The notes under the pieces: model-generated
Databases searched by the model: none
Told to the model about the DNA's origin: nothing
Seen by the model: only the letters and a program-made list of their open reading frames with translations
Program-made: the position numbers and the translations under genes
Part shown: positions 6,874 through 17,004 of the stretch, piece after piece
Position numbering within the stretch: position 1 is the stretch's first letter
How the letters are laid out: every line of letters begins with the position of its first letter
Virus record (IMG/VR): IMGVR_UViG_3300030673_000044
Coordinates: 1-25,106 of that record
Length of the DNA stretch: 25,106 bases
Strand: one strand, 5' to 3'
Source: a virus
Taxonomy: Duplodnaviria; Caudoviricetes

Positions 6874-8961
6874 TCAGTCCTTTCTGTAGCGGTAAGTCTC
6901 AAACCCCGCAGCAGCGAGCGGGATTCCCTTGGCCCAGCTCGGAGCGGTGGCCATCATTCCGGCCAGGGCTTCGGTGTTGTAGTCGTCGGTGTCGGGGGTT
7001 TCTGTGATTGCTTCATCGTGGATTTTTACCAAGATCCCGTACCCCGCTTTTTCGATAGCTGGGGTGTTGTAAAAAAACAAATCACGGGCAAAGCCCTGAT
7101 TGGCGTTTTCGATAATTTTGCCCCCGTATGTCTTGATAGCGCCCCACTGCCTCGTGTATTGGTTGACCCCAAAATAGGTGATCTGCCCGTCGTCAGCCAC
7201 GCTCGGGTTGATGTAGCAGAGGTAGCGGCCACTAGGCAGACGGATGCGCAACCACGCACCATCGCGGCGGGCCTTGAGGTGCTCGCCGATGGTGAAGCTC
7301 TGGCCCGGGTTGGCTATGGCGGCGCGCACTGAGTCGCCTGCGGCTTTCCAAAGTGCTTTGGTGTTGGGGTGAGCTTCACGCCAGCCCAGCACCAGAACCT
7401 CACAGGCAACCCACACCTTTTCCGGCAGGCCCAAGGTGCTGCGCCGTTGCTTCTTAAACCAGGCGTACATACCCTGGGCTTGCTTGATGGCCTCTGGGCT
7501 GGCTGCTTCCCACACAGCGGTGGCCAGCTCTTCAAGGTCCATACCGTACACAATGGCGAACGTGATGAACGCAGCGACACCCCCCTCGTACCCTAGACCC
7601 AACTCCATGACCTTGCCAATCTGGCGCATGGGCTTGGTGACCTCTTCAGGGGTGATGTTGAACGCGGCGGCGTAGGCGCGCTTATACAGGTCGGCACCGA
7701 TGCCCTGATCAAACTCGGCGAACGCCTTCAACTTCCATTGTTCACTCGCCAAGAATGCAAGCCCACGGCCTTCAATGTTGGACAAGTCAGCGACGACCAG
7801 CTTCTTGCCGGGCGGGGCGATGATGCAGCCACGGATAGCGTTGGCTGTCTGCTGCATCACGTTGGTGTAGACCAAATCAGCGCAGCCAATTTTGAGAGCT
7901 TCGACCACCAGCTCCTGGGCTTCGCCGTCGAATCCCAGCTCTGGGCGAGGCAAGTTGCCCGGCTGGAATAGCCGGTGTGCGTCACGCCCAGTGCGTGAGG
8001 CCCCGCAGAACTGGGTGGTATTGCGCAGGCGGCCATCACTACTTACAGAGTTCGTCAACGCCTTGTACTTGGCGGTGCTGGTCTTGGTGGCCTCAAGACG
8101 GATGGCCAGCAGCAGCTTGACCGCTTCGGGCAGTTCTGGGTCTTCCATCCGACGGCGCAGGGTATCGGCCTTCATGTCTGGCAAGGTGACACCGTACTCA
8201 GCGCAGATGAATGCCAGCAGGTTGTCGCGCTGGCTGACGTTGGTCACGAGCCCGTTTGTTTGCTCGGTGACCTCAGCTTTCATTCGCTTTTGTTCGATGG
8301 CAACAGCCTGAATCGCGGCATTTGCCAGGTGTAAGTCAACCGCCACCCCCCGATCATTAATTCGCTGGTCAAGGTGCCAGAGGACCAGTTCAGGGTGCCC
8401 AGCACGATAATTCCAGGTTGGAAGACGTTTGCTGCTTGCACGCATGGCGATGATGTCTTGTCTGCTGTACTCAAGGAATTCGGCCCACTGTTCGGGATGT
8501 GTTTTACGGGTAGCCCTCCTGAGAGTTGAGTTCTTTGGGCGCGGCTTGCACAGAAGCATGATCAACTCCCTGCCGCGCTTGTCTTTGGCCAGGTCAGCCT
8601 CGAGACCAACGATCTGGCCAACCTTGTCCAGGCTGCCTGGCAAACCGTGCGCCATCGCCTGGATCATGGTGTCCGTGAACCGCTCAACGGGGATATCTAG
8701 ACCCCAGCAGTGACGCATCAACGTGCGGTCAAAAACCGCGTTGTGAAATACCAACACCGTGTTCGGGTCGTTCAGGTGTTTGAGAGATGCAGCGCTTGGC
8801 TGCTTGCGCCCAGTCAGATCCTCAACAACGGGCTCGCCGTCGTTCAGCGCCCACTGCCAAACAATAATTTCCGTGGACTCATGCTCGGCGTATCTGTGGG
8901 TGCCTGCGCTCCTGAGGTCGCATTCGGAGAATGTTTCGGTATCCCCCCAGAGGATGTTCAT
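6874..8961 (-). CDS. polA: Family A DNA polymerase with 3'-5' exonuclease (APSE/BPP-1 type)
   Basis: Exo I DTETFS, Exo II HNAVFDR, Exo III YSRQD; motif A VADLSNIEGR, motif B RQIGKVMELGLGY, motif C IHDE; ATG 8961 in ATGA overlap. Confidence 0.95.
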   Translation of the reverse strand: MNILWGDTETFSECDLRSAGTHRYAEHESTEIIVWQWALNDGEPVVEDLTGRKQPSAASLKHLNDPNTVLVFHNAVFDRTLMRHCWGLDIPVERFTDTMIQAMAHGLPGSLDKVGQIVGLEADLAKDKRGRELIMLLCKPRPKNSTLRRATRKTHPEQWAEFLEYSRQDIIAMRASSKRLPTWNYRAGHPELVLWHLDQRINDRGVAVDLHLANAAIQAVAIEQKRMKAEVTEQTNGLVTNVSQRDNLLAFICAEYGVTLPDMKADTLRRRMEDPELPEAVKLLLAIRLEATKTSTAKYKALTNSVSSDGRLRNTTQFCGASRTGRDAHRLFQPGNLPRPELGFDGEAQELVVEALKIGCADLVYTNVMQQTANAIRGCIIAPPGKKLVVADLSNIEGRGLAFLASEQWKLKAFAEFDQGIGADLYKRAYAAAFNITPEEVTKPMRQIGKVMELGLGYEGGVAAFITFAIVYGMDLEELATAVWEAASPEAIKQAQGMYAWFKKQRRSTLGLPEKVWVACEVLVLGWREAHPNTKALWKAAGDSVRAAIANPGQSFTIGEHLKARRDGAWLRIRLPSGRYLCYINPSVADDGQITYFGVNQYTRQWGAIKTYGGKIIENANQGFARDLFFYNTPAIEKAGYGILVKIHDEAITETPDTDDYNTEALAGMMATAPSWAKGIPLAAAGFETYRYRKD

Positions 8962-9170
8962 ACGGTCCACCCTGCAGCTGTCTTGGCGCGCACCCGCTCA
9001 CCCCGTGCGGCTTGGGTAATTGAGGTGTAAGTCTTGCCGCGCGCCAGGCGAGGGTATTCTCTCCCAGCTTTGGACACCGCGCGCATGTAGCGGTCAACGC
9101 TTCGCACGTTGCCCAGGTCGCTGACTTGGTAGCGGCCTTCGTAGCCGGGTATGTCTTTCCAAATTTCCAT
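8958..9170 (-). pseudogene. NUMOD4-motif homing endonuclease remnant lacking the HNH domain
   Basis: MEIWKDIPGYEGRYQVSDLGNVRS (NUMOD4) joined directly to GKTYTSITQAAR (NUMOD1-like); no HNH motif; 70 aa. Confidence 0.75.
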
Positions 9171-13090: not shown

Positions 13091-13200
13091 AATGTAGCAC
13101 ATGCTAAAAACACAATGCAATAGATTCCCGACTTAAGCGTGGGGTTTTTAGCGATCTGTTGCTTTTTTTATGCTGCGATAGCTTTACAGCGTGCTAAAAT
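13091..13200. promoter_or_regulatory. Divergent control region: leftward promoter (TTGCAT-18-TACATT), rightward extended -10 (TGcTAAAAT), operators 13093-13108 and 13183-13198
   Basis: AT-rich gap between divergent genes; each -10 is overlapped by a TTTAGCA-NN-TGCTAAA-type site. Confidence 0.75.
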
Positions 13201-13206
13201 TGGCGC

Positions 13207-13536
13207 ATGAAAACACTACACCCAATGACAGTCTGGATGTCGGCGGCCACCGTCGAAGAACAGATTCTTCTCGCGTCCAAGGCTGGCACCAGTCGGGGGC
13301 ATCTGTATCAGCTGTCTGGCGGCCACCGGCAGGCTAGCGCCATCATGGCGGGCAAGATTGAAGCTGCCACTGCTGAAATGAACAAGGCCAGCAAAGGCCG
13401 ATTGCCCAAGGTGGTGCGTACTGACCTCTGCGAAGCGTGCCAGGTCTGCCAGTACGCGGCCAAGTGCCTGGGCTCACGGGCGGTGGTCAGCGAATTTCCA
13501 ATTGTCGATTCACGTCAACTGGAGTTGCAGCTATGA
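13207..13536 (+). CDS. Cro/CI-like HTH regulator with C-terminal CxxCxxCx5C cluster
   Basis: QILLASKAGTSRGHLYQLSGGHRQAS HTH; first gene after divergent promoters. Confidence 0.8.
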   Translation: MKTLHPMTVWMSAATVEEQILLASKAGTSRGHLYQLSGGHRQASAIMAGKIEAATAEMNKASKGRLPKVVRTDLCEACQVCQYAAKCLGSRAVVSEFPIVDSRQLELQL

Positions 13537-13767: not shown

Positions 13768-13956
13768 ATGACCCCCAAACTTCGCACCGGCATGCGTCTG
13801 GCGTTGCCCAGTGGCAACACCCTAGTGCTGAAGTCTCGTGTGCGTGAGCTGTGGGTGTGTGAGCTGTGGGTGTGTGAGTTCCTGCCTGGGTGCAAGGCCC
13901 GTGGCGAGGTGGAATTCACAGGTGCCTACTTGCGCAAGTGGGGCACACAAATTTAG
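13768..13956 (+). CDS. Hypothetical protein containing a 15-bp tandem duplication (ELWVC x2)
   Basis: ORF track; GTGAGCTGTGGGTGT at 13844-13858 and 13859-13873. Confidence 0.6.
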   Translation: MTPKLRTGMRLALPSGNTLVLKSRVRELWVCELWVCEFLPGCKARGEVEFTGAYLRKWGTQI

Positions 13957-13981
13957 CAAATAGTAAAAATGGTGGTACAGT
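13952..13981 (+). promoter_or_regulatory. Rightward promoter (TTAGCA-17-TACAGT, extended TG) with operator 13952-13967
   Basis: TTTAGCAAATAGTAAA is 2 mismatches from the operator consensus; precedes structured leader. Confidence 0.6.
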
Positions 13982-15015
13982 CCGAGTGCCAAACCATTAC
14001 TGTCCCGCCATGGGTGGGGGTTCCGACCCGTGGACAGCGGGTAGGGTTTGGCGACTTCGGAACCCCCACCCATGACGATTTTGAAAGCGCAAAAATGTCA
14101 TGCCAGCCTATTACAACGAGATCGATCCCTACGCCGCCCAGTGGATCAGAAACCTTATCGCAGCAGGGCACATCGCTGACGGGGTTGTCGATGAACGCAG
14201 TATCGAAGACGTTCACCCCATCGAACTCCAAGAATTCACGCAGTGCCACTTCTTTGCTGGAGTCGGCGTCTGGTCCCGAGCTTTGCGCTGTGCGGGATGG
14301 CCTGACGACCGAAGAGTTTGGACAGGCTCTTGCCCATGTCAGCCTTTCAGCACGGCAGGCAAAGGCGCTGGGTTTGCTGACGAGCGGCACTTGTGGCCAG
14401 CTTTCTATCACCTCATCGAACAGTGCCGCCCTGAATGCGTCTTTGGTGAGCAGGTTGCAAGCAAGGACGCAAACCCTTGGATCGACCTTGTACACACTGG
14501 CTTGGAAGCCTTGGGTTACGCCTTCGGGGCGGTCCCGTTTCCGGCTGCGAGCGTCGGTGCGCCGCACATCCGAGACAGACTTTACTGGGTGGCCAACGCC
14601 TCGGGTACAGGACTCCAAATATGCAGAGGCCACACCATGGGAAGTGGAGAACCGCAAGGCTGATTACTTGCTGCACACGTCGGCGAGTTTAGCGTCGTGG
14701 GCAACCCCCACGACGCGCGGCTACAAGGACTCGAATCTAGCGGGGTGGCCTACGGCAACCTGCAACACCAAGGATCAGCCGACCACGCAACGCGGATTGG
14801 AAACTTTGGCGGGAATGGCCAAGATAGCAGGCCCGGCCCGACTAACGGCCACTGGCGAGATGCTGACTGGCTCTACTGCCGGGATGACAAGTTCAGGTCC
14901 GTTGAACCCGGCACATTCCCGCTGGCTCATAGGGCTCCCGCCCGAGTGGGACGCCTGCGCGCCTATGGAAACGCGGTCAACGCTATCCAAGCGCAAAGCT
15001 TTATCCAAGCCGTGA
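13969..15015 (+). CDS. Overlapping-frame methyltransferase beta-like polypeptide (true start probably internal, 14095 or later)
   Basis: 348 open codons in a second frame across the MTase; WPTP/WATP/WPTA repeats and [16 protein letters not shown] (motif IX-like). Confidence 0.65.
14009..14074 (+). ncRNA. P4 CI / P1 C4-like antisense regulatory RNA candidate
   Basis: Perfect 18-bp inverted repeat 14009-14026 / 14057-14074, inner CCCG/CGGG hairpin; exposed GGACAG and GGTTTGGC are complementary to 14000-14005 and 13988-13995. Confidence 0.65.
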
Positions 15016-15080
15016 TGGAGACCTTGCATGACCGCCGTCACCCACATCAAACCCCACGTGTCGAACATCGTCGCACCTGA
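14100..15080 (+). pseudogene. C5 cytosine DNA methyltransferase, alpha frame, interrupted by in-frame TGA 14661-14663
   Basis: FFAGVG (motif I), GSCPCQPFS (IV), GEQV (VI), [10 protein letters not shown] (VIII); same frame resumes to [12 protein letters not shown] (X). Confidence 0.85.
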
Positions 15081-17004
15081 TGAAATGCGCAACCTGCCCG
15101 CCTGGTTGGTATGGCGGTTCGAGTATCACGAGGGTGAGGCCAAGCCCCGCAAGATTCCCTACTACACGACGGGCGCCAAGCGCCACGGCAAGCAGGGGGA
15201 ACCAGAGGACCGCCAGCAGCTCACCACATTCGACGCAGCGCGCACAGCTGCAGCCCGGCGGGGCTTCGACGGCGTGGGCTTTGTGCCCATGCCTAAGTTC
15301 AACATCTGTGCGCTGGACTTCGACAAGTGCATCACCAACGGGGTGCTGCACCCAGACCTTGAGCCCATAGTCACCAACACCTACGCCGAATATTCACCCA
15401 GCGGGGTTGGCGTCCGCGCTTTTGTGAAGGGTCAATATGGCAACTCAAAATCACATGGGGAGCCCTACGGATTTGAAGTCTTCAGCTCCAAGGGCTTCGT
15501 CACCTTCACCGGAAATCGACTCGACATCACTGACATCCTCGGCAACGAGAACAATATCGCAACCGTCGACGACGCCGTGCGTGGACTTTGCACACAGCGT
15601 TTTGCGCGTCCCCCTGGGGAGATTCACGTCAGCGCTGGTGAACCAGTGGGTCTTAGTACCCAGCAAATAGAAAGCCTGCTGGTAGCTCTCAACCCAGACA
15701 TGGGCCACGACGAGTGGCTGGCCGTCGGCATGGGCCTGCACCACGAGACCCGGGGCGAGGGATTCGACTACTGGTGTGATTGGTCAGAGCTCGGGGGCAA
15801 GTTCCCGGGGCGCGATGTCTTGCTTCAGCGCTGGTCGTCCTTTGGTAAGAACCACGAGCGCACAGTCACCATCCGCACAGCCATGAAAATGGCAGGCATG
15901 GCGGTCAATGGCCCCGCCTTAATGGAAGAGTTTGATGCGCTGCCAGCCCTCGAAGATAAAGGGCTGGCAGCTACAGATTCAGTAGCGCCTACTCTCAGAT
16001 TCCCAGTGCTCACCGCCAGCGAGTTCGCCAACAAGCCCGCGCCCAGCTGGATCATCAAGCACGTGTTGCCCGAGGCTGAACTGGTCGTGCTCTACGGCGC
16101 CAGCGGGTCGGGCAAGACATTCATGGCGTTGGACATGGCCGGGTGCATCGCTCGGGGGCTGCCGTGGCGGGGCAAGAAGACCAAGCAAGGCCGGGTTGTC
16201 TACATCGCCGCCGAAGGCGCCGGGGGCTTCAGGAACCGAATGCAAGCCTACGCTCAACACAACGTCATTGACCTCGACGCCTTGAACATCGGGGTCATCA
16301 ACGCGGCGCCCAACTTCTTAGAAAAGATAGACGCCCTGGATGTGGCCAGGTCCATCAAGGCCAGTGGCGGTGCTGACGTGGTGGTCGTGGACACGTTCGC
16401 CCAGGTCATGCCAGGGGGGAACGAGAACGCAGGTGAGGACATGGGCAAGGCCATGGCCCACTGCAAGGGCATCCACCGGGCCACAGGCGCTGTGGTGATC
16501 TTGATCCATCACGCGGGCAAGGACAGCAGCAAAGGTGCTCGAGGGTGGTCAGGGCTGCGCGCTGCAGCGGATGCAGAGCTGGAGGCCATTCGCACGCCTA
16601 CAGGGCGCATGCTGCGCTTGTCCAAGCAAAAGGACGGCGAGGACGAGCTAGAGTGGGGTTTTGACCTGGACATCGTACGTATTGGCGTCGATGAAGACCT
16701 GGAGCCCATCACCTCGTGCGTTGTGATCGAGGCGGCCATACCAGCGGTGGGGGGCATTGCCAGCCGCAAGCTGGGGGTGGTTGAGGCTGTCGTCAATGCC
16801 GTGATTCAAGAGTTCGCCAAGGCCCAGACTGAAGGCATTGAAGTTGGCCCAGTGCTGGCTGATTCAATCAAGCGCATGGACCCTCCAGCCGATGGCAAGC
16901 GGGACACCCGGCGCATGCGGGCACGCAAGGCTTTGGAGTCGCTGTGTAGTGGCGACGAGGCACCGTATTGGCTTGGTGATGATGGTTGTATTGCAATTTG
17001 CTGA
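15028..17004 (+). CDS. Primase-helicase: N-terminal primase/prim-pol, PriCT-2, C-terminal AAA_25/RecA-like helicase
   Basis: WLVW...KIPY, ALDFD, EYSPSG.G; DEWLAVGMGLH...W.DWS...KF; GASGSGKT, YIAAEG, VVVDT, HHAGKD, RGWS. Confidence 0.92.
   Translation: MTAVTHIKPHVSNIVAPDEMRNLPAWLVWRFEYHEGEAKPRKIPYYTTGAKRHGKQGEPEDRQQLTTFDAARTAAARRGFDGVGFVPMPKFNICALDFDKCITNGVLHPDLEPIVTNTYAEYSPSGVGVRAFVKGQYGNSKSHGEPYGFEVFSSKGFVTFTGNRLDITDILGNENNIATVDDAVRGLCTQRFARPPGEIHVSAGEPVGLSTQQIESLLVALNPDMGHDEWLAVGMGLHHETRGEGFDYWCDWSELGGKFPGRDVLLQRWSSFGKNHERTVTIRTAMKMAGMAVNGPALMEEFDALPALEDKGLAATDSVAPTLRFPVLTASEFANKPAPSWIIKHVLPEAELVVLYGASGSGKTFMALDMAGCIARGLPWRGKKTKQGRVVYIAAEGAGGFRNRMQAYAQHNVIDLDALNIGVINAAPNFLEKIDALDVARSIKASGGADVVVVDTFAQVMPGGNENAGEDMGKAMAHCKGIHRATGAVVILIHHAGKDSSKGARGWSGLRAAADAELEAIRTPTGRMLRLSKQKDGEDELEWGFDLDIVRIGVDEDLEPITSCVVIEAAIPAVGGIASRKLGVVEAVVNAVIQEFAKAQTEGIEVGPVLADSIKRMDPPADGKRDTRRMRARKALESLCSGDEAPYWLGDDGCIAIC
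15945..15986 (+). repeat. 42-bp double-hairpin repeat, copy B, in frame in the primase-helicase linker
   Basis: Exact reverse complement of 2258-2299; encodes ALEDKGLAATDSVA. Confidence 0.95.

What the first reader, a model, noticed from the sequence alone, without database searches (positions are those of the whole stretch)
13952..15062. P4-CI/C4-like antisense RNA switch apparently wired to the primase-helicase gene
Seen: an operator-overlapped promoter (13952-13981) is followed by a perfect 18-bp stem (14009-14026 / 14057-14074). The stem encloses a minor hairpin whose loop exposes GGACAG (14032-14037) and a single-stranded GGTTTGGC (14045-14052). Both are complementary, in the correct antiparallel order, to the predicted transcript 5' end GCCAAACC-ATTA-CTGTCC (13988-14005). 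A second bipartite match with identical spacing, CAAACC-N5-TGTC (15048-15062), lies in the first codons of the primase-helicase. Established: P4 CI RNA and P1 C4 RNA use this upstream-target / RNA / downstream-target layout, and P4 CI controls the operon encoding its alpha primase-helicase. Inference: this is an RNA-based immunity or replication control in a BPP-1-like podovirus, and the MTase is inserted between the RNA and its downstream target. No large CI repressor gene is visible in the window, which would fit. The downstream match is short and could be chance.
Basis: partly seen in the sequence, partly recalled or inferred. Interest (0 to 1): 0.82.

Follow-up and report, generated by a model that had tools for sequence, protein, structure and literature searches.

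The report
Mirror-image antisense switch for phage replication
A conserved, uncatalogued cloverleaf RNA sits at the start of replication operons in several phage groups, and its loops change together with matching sites on the same message, so it likely works as a self-targeting antisense switch that times and then shuts off phage replication genes.

Summary
The RNA element is real. I found 78 distinct homologs and no Rfam match, although Rfam detects the P4 and N15 RNAs. It is a cloverleaf: a ~20-bp stem plus two hairpins, with compensatory changes in 28 of 30 pairs. Both loops covary with targets at the predicted transcript 5' end; 21 of 26 loop alleles pair at least 5 bp with their own target, against 46 of 650 swapped pairs.

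The conserved downstream target lies just before the next start codon (57 of 78 homologs) and is decayed in this window. In BPP-1-like podoviruses that start codon usually opens a leader peptide or cargo gene overlapping the primase-helicase. In Bcep22-like phages, including cultured JC1, a U-tract follows and antirepressor or replication-initiator genes lie downstream.

Folding predicts an early target-loop fold that gives way to the cloverleaf. Best reading: a C4/CI-like trans-acting antisense repressor whose recognition core is mirrored relative to C4. Expression, processing and direction of control are untested.

The parts
13207..13536 (+). Cro-like small protein; candidate binder of the operator palindrome (inferred)
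   Evidence: phrog_10248, function unknown; homologs 280-990 nt upstream of the element in many loci; palindrome at 13183-13198 just upstream
13952..13967 (.). 16-bp operator-like palindrome over the presumed -35 region
   Evidence: 5 sites in the window; same motif at -24 to -36 from the 5' target in homologs
13973..13981 (+). Extended -10 element (TG-n-TACAGT); transcript start predicted at about 13987-13988
   Evidence: -10-like hexamer 4-9 nt upstream of a1 in 76 of 78 homologs (65 at 6-8 nt), TG extension in 50
13988..13995 (+). Upstream target a1
   Evidence: pairs with a'; cognate 8.2 vs swapped 6.6 bp over 47 alleles, 0 of 100000 permutations
14000..14005 (+). Upstream target b1, abutting the outer stem
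   Evidence: 5 of 5 pairs with compensatory changes; 21 of 26 alleles pair at least 5 bp with their own loop
14006..14026 (+). Outer stem P1, 5' arm
   Evidence: 20 of 20 pairs with compensatory change
14027..14041 (+). Hairpin P2 presenting the specificity loop b' (14032-14037)
14044..14057 (+). Hairpin P3 with UGGC loop; carries a' (14045-14056)
14057..14077 (+). Outer stem P1, 3' arm; followed by a short T tract at 14079-14082
14083..14094 (+). Downstream target a2 in the ribosome-binding position; decayed in this phage
   Evidence: 57 of 78 homologs pair at least 6 bp with a'; duplex -7.7 kcal/mol here against a median of -16.3 in group I
14095..15015 (+). First ORF after the switch: 306-aa +1-frame chain of a dual-frame C5 methyltransferase locus (cargo)
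   Evidence: phrog_1008 and phrog_31772 on the same frame
14100..14663 (+). C5 methyltransferase catalytic frame, cut short by an in-frame TGA at 14661-14663
   Evidence: PF00145; the C-terminal motif continues in the same frame after the stop, and most homologs are uninterrupted
15028..17004 (+). Primase-helicase (PriCT_2 + AAA_25), the likely regulated replication gene; own GGAG at 15017-15020
15048..15062 (+).

Best explanation
This is a conserved cloverleaf RNA in the leader of a phage replication operon, whose two loops covary with targets on the same transcript, and it likely acts as a self-targeting antisense repressor that would allow an early burst of replication-gene expression and then shut it off. 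Shown by sequence comparison: the three stems, the a1:a', b1:b' and a':a2 complementarities, the position ahead of replication genes, and overlap of the first ORF with the primase-helicase gene. Predicted by folding: the nascent RNA first pairs a1 with a' and only later relaxes into the more stable cloverleaf. Inferred: cloverleaf RNA accumulates by termination or processing and binds new transcripts in trans. Binding at a1/b1 would prevent the early fold, so the stem and U-tract form at once and attenuate transcription (mainly group II). Binding at a2 would block the start codon whose ORF is coupled to the primase-helicase (group I). Phages with the same loop allele would repress each other. 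In this window the a2 arm is decayed and the primase has its own ribosome-binding site, so control here would rest mostly on the a1/b1 arm.
For: Structure: 97.6% of cells paired, 28 of 30 pairs with compensatory change over 78 sequences, 0 of 500 shuffles (on the MAFFT alignment gives 89.1% and 23 of 30). G-U 50 against A-C 6 in P1 points to the + strand as RNA. Target pairing: 95.9% paired, 77 compensatory cells; cognate against swapped alleles 0 of 100000 permutations for b1, a1 and a2. Early fold in 77 of 78 and final cloverleaf in 77 of 78. In cis the a':a2 fold is about 10 kcal/mol weaker than the cloverleaf in group I (medians -48.0 vs -58.0), and the P1 3' arm is made before a2, so a selected a2 is easiest to explain by trans pairing. 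Context: first ORF overlaps the next long ORF in 40 of 58 group I loci, and in 2 more the first ORF is itself over 600 aa. The RNA precedes at least five replication modules (AAA_25/PriCT_2, PriCT_1, D5, VapE-like, initiator plus DnaC-like). In group II, 10 of 12 first ORFs tested carry antirepressor-type domains. P4 CI acts through upstream and downstream targets (PMC4825925, passage); P1 c4 blocks ant translation at the ribosome-binding site (PMC12197685, passage).
Against: No expression, processing or reporter data. Covariation alone does not separate cis from trans pairing, and a1/b1 can pair in cis. Folding predicts the start region is more open in the cloverleaf than in the early fold in 45 of 56 group I members, which would also fit an activating logic. 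19 of 22 group I genomes have no tyrosine integrase and none of the 22 has a resolvase, S24 repressor or ParA match, so a lysogenic state in which immunity would matter is not shown. The downstream target is single, not bipartite, is absent in 20 of 78 members and is decayed in this window. Early and cloverleaf folds are nearly equal in energy here (-52.5 vs -52.8).
Confidence: 0.6

Rival explanations
1. Purely cis-acting folding timer or attenuator: the a1:a', cloverleaf and a':a2 folds are successive states of one transcript, and transcription speed or ribosome loading sets the output. No free RNA acts on other molecules.
For: All three pairings can be drawn in cis; metastable early fold in 77 of 78; P1 sequence drifts as freely as the loops, so allele diversity does not need selection for immunity; most group I genomes show no lysogeny genes.
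Against: The cis a':a2 fold is about 10 kcal/mol weaker and later than P1; b1 abuts the base of a 20-bp stem and cannot reach its loop once P1 has formed (inference from geometry); both recognition sequences are kept in hairpin loops.
Confidence: 0.2
2. IsrK-like activator: the read-through transcript is trapped in the early fold with its start region buried, and the short RNA in trans frees it, giving delayed positive feedback on replication.
For: Start region predicted more accessible in the cloverleaf in 45 of 56 group I members; in the window a hairpin buries both start codons in the early fold; IsrK works this way (PMC4825925, abstract and passages).
Against: A trans RNA that also matches a2 would cover the ribosome-binding position; in group II the cloverleaf is followed by a longer U tract (mean 6.1 vs 4.4 T in 9 nt), which fits termination; accessibility differences are small (medians 0.45 vs 0.58).
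Confidence: 0.1
3. Decoy or cross-talk device: the a' loop has the same sequence as targets of canonical C4 RNAs and could trap C4-type RNAs of resident prophages or of the mirror-image sister family, in addition to or instead of self-control.
For: The 11-mer of a' occurs 38 times in the stored part of the alignment supplement of PMC2864571; the two passages shown are target positions flanking C4 RNAs; Bcep22-type phages hold the complementary core at the same genomic place.
Against: b1, a1 and a2 covary with the element's own loops, which a decoy does not need.
Confidence: 0.06
4. DNA-level structure (cruciform or single-strand origin) next to the primase gene.
For: Long inverted repeat near a primase gene; one copy per genome.
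Against: Strand asymmetry G-U 50 vs A-C 6; fixed spacing behind a -10 element and ahead of a start codon; stays at the promoter when 0.2-1.8 kb of cargo is inserted; retained ahead of unrelated replication modules.
Confidence: 0.03

Closest known systems
C4 antisense RNA (Rfam RF01695), including P1/P7 c4, P4 CI and N15 CA
   Same: Three-stem RNA in the leader of the operon it precedes; targets on the same transcript; antirepressor or replication genes downstream; shared GCCAA/UUGGC recognition core (Rfam consensus; flanks).
   Different: No Rfam match while P4 and N15 score 75-79 bits, and my model gives no significant match in those two loci (best 14.7 bits). The core is mirrored: C4 carries GCCAA in an unpaired junction and its targets carry UUGGC in hairpin loops; here the RNA carries UUGGC in a hairpin loop and the targets carry GCCAA. 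The specificity hairpin comes first, and there is no tetraloop first hairpin. Targets directly abut the RNA. The downstream target is single or absent.
IsrK / seqA (RF01394) and c4-a1b1 (RF03163)
   Same: Promoter-proximal RNA with a UUGGC-loop hairpin, a U tract and alternative folds.
   Different: No match. IsrK is an open row of hairpins upstream of a separate C4 RNA; here the hairpins are enclosed in one long stem and no separate C4 RNA was detected nearby.
Plasmid antisense copy control through a leader peptide coupled to rep (R1 CopA/tap/repA type; recalled, not checked in a paper here)
   Same: Short leader ORF overlapping the replication gene, with a regulatory site at the leader's start.
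   Different: Those RNAs come from the opposite strand and are fully complementary; this one lies on the same strand and matches through short loops.
Bcep22-type sister element (unnamed; Bcep22, BcepIL02, DC1, BcepMigl, CSP3)
   Same: Same genomic position, same a1-b1-stem-loop order, b1/b' covariation by inspection.
   Different: Core polarity as in C4; not detected by my model or by Rfam.

Membership tests
C4 antisense RNA (RF01695) | Scores above the family's gathering threshold | tested here: not met
   No match in the window at E up to 1 or 10, in 20 homolog loci at gathering or in 12 cultured-phage loci; P4 and N15 controls pass
C4 antisense RNA (RF01695) | Three-stem junction closed by a long outer stem | tested here: met
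C4 antisense RNA (RF01695) | Order: tetraloop hairpin, specificity hairpin, unpaired GCCAA-type junction | tested here: not met
   Here: specificity hairpin, then UUGGC hairpin (against the consensus)
C4/CI-type systems | Bipartite upstream target complementary to two exposed parts of the RNA | tested here: met
C4/CI-type systems | Downstream target at a translation start | tested here: inconclusive
   a2 in 57 of 78, single-part; absent in 20; decayed in the window
C4/CI-type systems | Antirepressor or replication genes downstream in the same operon | tested here: met
   (gene order; co-transcription not shown)
C4/CI-type systems | Small stable RNA released by RNase P processing | not testable with these tools
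   No RNA holder was listed for the one stretch searched; RNase P processing of C4/CI is recalled
C4/CI-type systems | Repression in trans, giving allele-specific immunity | not testable with these tools
   26 loop alleles fit this but no functional data
IsrK (RF01394) / c4-a1b1 (RF03163) | Covariance-model match | tested here: not met
   controls

The most novel reading that the evidence does not exclude
A widespread group of podoviruses without integrase, partition or S24-repressor genes keeps a quiet, plasmid-like state by an RNA-only circuit: a mirror-image C4-like RNA sets primase-helicase dosage through a coupled leader peptide, its 26 or more loop alleles define incompatibility groups, and mirror-image sister RNAs of related phages can bind and cancel each other.
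Probability: 0.2. Interest if true: 0.85.

Novelty: new variant of a known kind. Interest (0 to 1): 0.66.

Why it matters
It adds an unannotated RNA control layer to the replication operons of two unrelated podovirus groups, including cultured Burkholderia and Ralstonia phages whose lysis-lysogeny control has so far been read from protein genes only (the JC1 paper has no occurrence of 'antisense' or 'non-coding'). It shows that the C4 recognition logic exists in both polarities and with two apparent outputs, a translation block and attenuation. The natural allele series makes cis against trans action directly testable, and it may explain how integrase-less phages limit their own replication or exclude relatives.

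Tried and rejected
Rfam scans: no family; one search gave only generic microRNA hairpin matches far below threshold. blastn of the window element against cultured phages: no match; cultured members were reached through divergent homologs. BPP-1 itself has no match to my model. Link to the methyltransferase rejected (0 of 79). The 15048 site rejected as a family feature; a private role in this phage is not excluded (about 10%), since this is also the one member with neither a good a2 nor a Shine-Dalgarno-like site after the stem. The 348-aa ORF starting at 13969 and running through the RNA was not treated as a gene; the start at 14095 matches the family's conserved start position. No further strong bipartite target on the sense strands of four genomes by inspection. 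Genus-wide search around one Burkholderia genome: 1 of 95, but only about 33 of roughly 900 candidates per genome were scored, so it says little. GTDB pattern scan: 1 of 10 hits real. Expression: no RNA holder listed; the single run laid is a long contig, probably DNA. PMC176756 is not held. The supplement of PMC5737381, which describes c4-2, could not be read; c4-2 was tested only as part of the whole Rfam scan. In PMC10690425, 6 supplementary files had none of four short motifs, but files 1, 2 and 4 were not searched and may list this motif. Rows dropped: pattern hits without an outer stem of at least 12 Watson-Crick pairs (32 of the 97 new loci; the non-matching loci), one duplicate register and identical rows (81 to 78).

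Full report
1. Setting. The window is part of a BPP-1-like podovirus: head-tail connector, Bbp16, Bbp19, GP7 capsid, family A polymerase, SNF2 helicase and an AAA_25/PriCT_2 primase-helicase at 15028-17004. A 39.9-kb record carries the same methyltransferase and primase proteins at 100% identity. The finding lies between a Cro-like gene (13207-13536) and a methyltransferase locus that precedes the primase.

2. Observation. The stem, both loop sequences and both 5' complements are at the stated coordinates. Rfam gave no family for the window. The operator-like palindrome is real and recurs. Only an extended -10 element is visible.

3. Homologs. I fetched 80 methyltransferase loci and 78 primase loci and ran pattern scans. 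A descriptor requiring the inner hairpin, the UUGGC core and an outer stem of at least 12 Watson-Crick pairs gave 49 distinct sequences, which were aligned and modelled. The model found the element in 0 of 79 other methyltransferase loci and 24 of 78 primase loci. It also found members in cultured phages reached by blastn: Burkholderia phage JC1 and Ralstonia phages Gerry, NK-7, RPZH6, Heva, Gervaise, Darius, UAM5, PY045S1, YL4 and, weakly, YL1. The final set has 78 distinct sequences. There is one full-length copy per genome in 24 of 24 records. Bias: the outer stem was required, so its presence is by construction. One search required one target allele, which counts once in the allele tests. 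The other scans did not require targets, and the model has no target-loop pairs.

4. Structure. The RNA is a cloverleaf: outer stem P1, hairpin P2 with a variable loop b', and hairpin P3 with a UGGC loop inside a'. On the model-fitted alignment 97.6% of cells pair and 28 of 30 pairs show compensatory change; slid controls reach at most 54%. On the unfitted MAFFT alignment the values are 89.1% and 23 of 30. G-U pairs outnumber A-C mismatches 50 to 6 in P1, which points to the + strand as RNA.

5. Target-loop covariation. On the MAFFT alignment a1:a' and b1:b' are 95.9% paired with 77 compensatory cells. Of 26 distinct b' alleles, 21 pair at least 5 bp with their own b1, against 46 of 650 swapped pairs; no permutation of 100000 reached the observed sum. 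The same holds for a1 (8.2 vs 6.6 bp) and a2 (7.5 vs 6.1 bp) over 47 a' alleles. Weak cases are L133, L359, L349, L294 and L310 (3-4 bp). Related sequences are not independent, but 26 alleles need at least 25 changes on any tree.

6. The downstream target. The site at 15048-15062 passes a bipartite test in 1 of 35 primase starts, the window's own. The hexamer occurs in 6 other starts whose RNA has the non-matching allele. The conserved target, a2, lies 0-6 nt before the first ATG after the stem. The family splits cleanly: 57 members have a2 and no Shine-Dalgarno-like motif (group I), 20 have such a motif, a longer U tract and no a2 (group II), and the window has neither. Its a':a2 duplex is -7.7 kcal/mol against a group I median of -16.3.

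7. What lies downstream. Group I: a 9-24 aa leader peptide or a cargo gene overlaps the next long ORF in 40 of 58 loci; 4 more have a 1-nt gap by that count, and in 2 the first ORF is itself over 600 aa. The long ORFs tested are primase-helicases of four domain types. Group II: 10 of 12 first ORFs tested carry ANT, AntA, KilA-N, Bro-N or Rha domains and 2 are winged-helix proteins, followed by a replication initiator and often a DnaC-like gene. In the window the first ORF ends 12 nt before the primase, which has its own GGAG.

8. Lifestyle. JC1 forms stable, superinfection-resistant lysogens and has a repressor and a recombinase (PMC9144972, passages); one group II record is a provirus. In group I, 19 of 22 genomes lack a tyrosine integrase and none of 22 matches resolvase, S24 or ParA families. 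These negatives are limited: Gerry also matched neither recombinase family. A small HTH repressor-like gene is present in 34 of 78 loci but not in the window's phage.

9. Mechanism. Folding predicts a1:a' pairing in 77 of 78 nascent transcripts that end at P3, and the cloverleaf in 77 of 78 once P1 is complete. With downstream sequence, the group I medians are -48.8 (early fold), -58.0 (cloverleaf) and -48.0 (a':a2 in cis) kcal/mol. I infer a kinetic window in which the leader delays the cloverleaf, followed by accumulation of a stable RNA that binds new transcripts at a1/b1 and a2. This parallels P4, where processed CI RNA pairs with seqA upstream and seqC downstream to terminate transcription of replication genes (PMC4825925, passage), and P1 c4, which blocks ant translation and underlies P1/P7 heteroimmunity (PMC12197685, passage). 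I put 0.6 on trans repression, 0.2 on a purely cis timer, 0.1 on IsrK-like activation, 0.06 on a decoy role and 0.03 on a DNA structure. None of these steps was tested experimentally.

10. Relation to known families. Rfam C4, isrK and c4-a1b1 detect P4 and N15 but none of 20 homolog loci or 12 cultured-phage loci; my model does not detect P4, N15 or BPP-1. The C4 consensus has GCCAA in its junction and UUGGC in its target loops, and the a' 11-mer appears as the target in C4 flanks (PMC2864571 supplement, two passages of 38 occurrences). This family reverses that polarity. Bcep22-type phages hold a sister element with C4 polarity at the same position. So it works like C4/CI as far as sequence can show, and it is not a member of those Rfam families. 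PMC3632133 (passages) equates CI with C4 and seqA with IsrK.

11. Novelty and limits. Paper searches and this scan's notes returned no description of this family. The library lacks most subscription journals, and unread supplements of PMC5737381 and PMC10690425 could list the motif. Verdict: new variant of a known kind, interest 0.66.

Noticed in passing
L354-L358, L375-L381, L383 (Bcep22, BcepIL02, DC1, BcepMigl, CSP3 and four uncultured phages): A sister cloverleaf with the opposite core polarity sits at the same place ahead of the replication operon; its loop and adjacent target change together by inspection; 8 of 9 pattern hits look real; no Rfam match in the five cultured loci scanned.
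   Followed up: partly
window 14095-15015 and 14100-14663: Dual-frame C5 methyltransferase locus: the +1-frame protein has tblastn matches in the +1 frame in 79 of 80 homolog loci; in this phage the catalytic frame has a premature stop. Earlier scan notes describe the dual-frame layout.
   Followed up: partly
window 6665, 12144, 13093, 13183, 13952: A 16-bp palindrome marks several intergenic sites and is conserved at matching places in relatives; likely the operator of the Cro-like or repressor-like protein.
   Followed up: partly
window 13100-13207; G004: This phage lacks the ~140-aa HTH repressor-like gene (phrog_12107) that 34 of 78 homolog loci carry next to the Cro-like gene.
   Followed up: partly
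L104, L094, L220, L306, L105, L309, L329, L334, L083, L160, L173, L302: The slot behind the RNA is a cargo hotspot; by N-terminal sequence several unrelated methyltransferase types and small ORFs are inserted there, nearly always keeping a 4-nt overlap with the primase gene.
   Followed up: partly
L346:7109-7253 and 7947-8091 (Ralstonia phage RPZH6): Two identical copies of the element 838 nt apart, each followed by an ORF with the same N-terminus.
   Followed up: no
L242, L246, L259 (G117-G119): The three group I genomes with a tyrosine integrase; in L242 and L259 no ATG follows a2 within 40 nt.
   Followed up: no
window 13840-13869: 15-nt tandem duplication in the small ORF just upstream of the promoter.
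   Followed up: no
window 8958-9170: 70-aa NUMOD4/HNH-like fragment ahead of the DNA polymerase gene.
   Followed up: no
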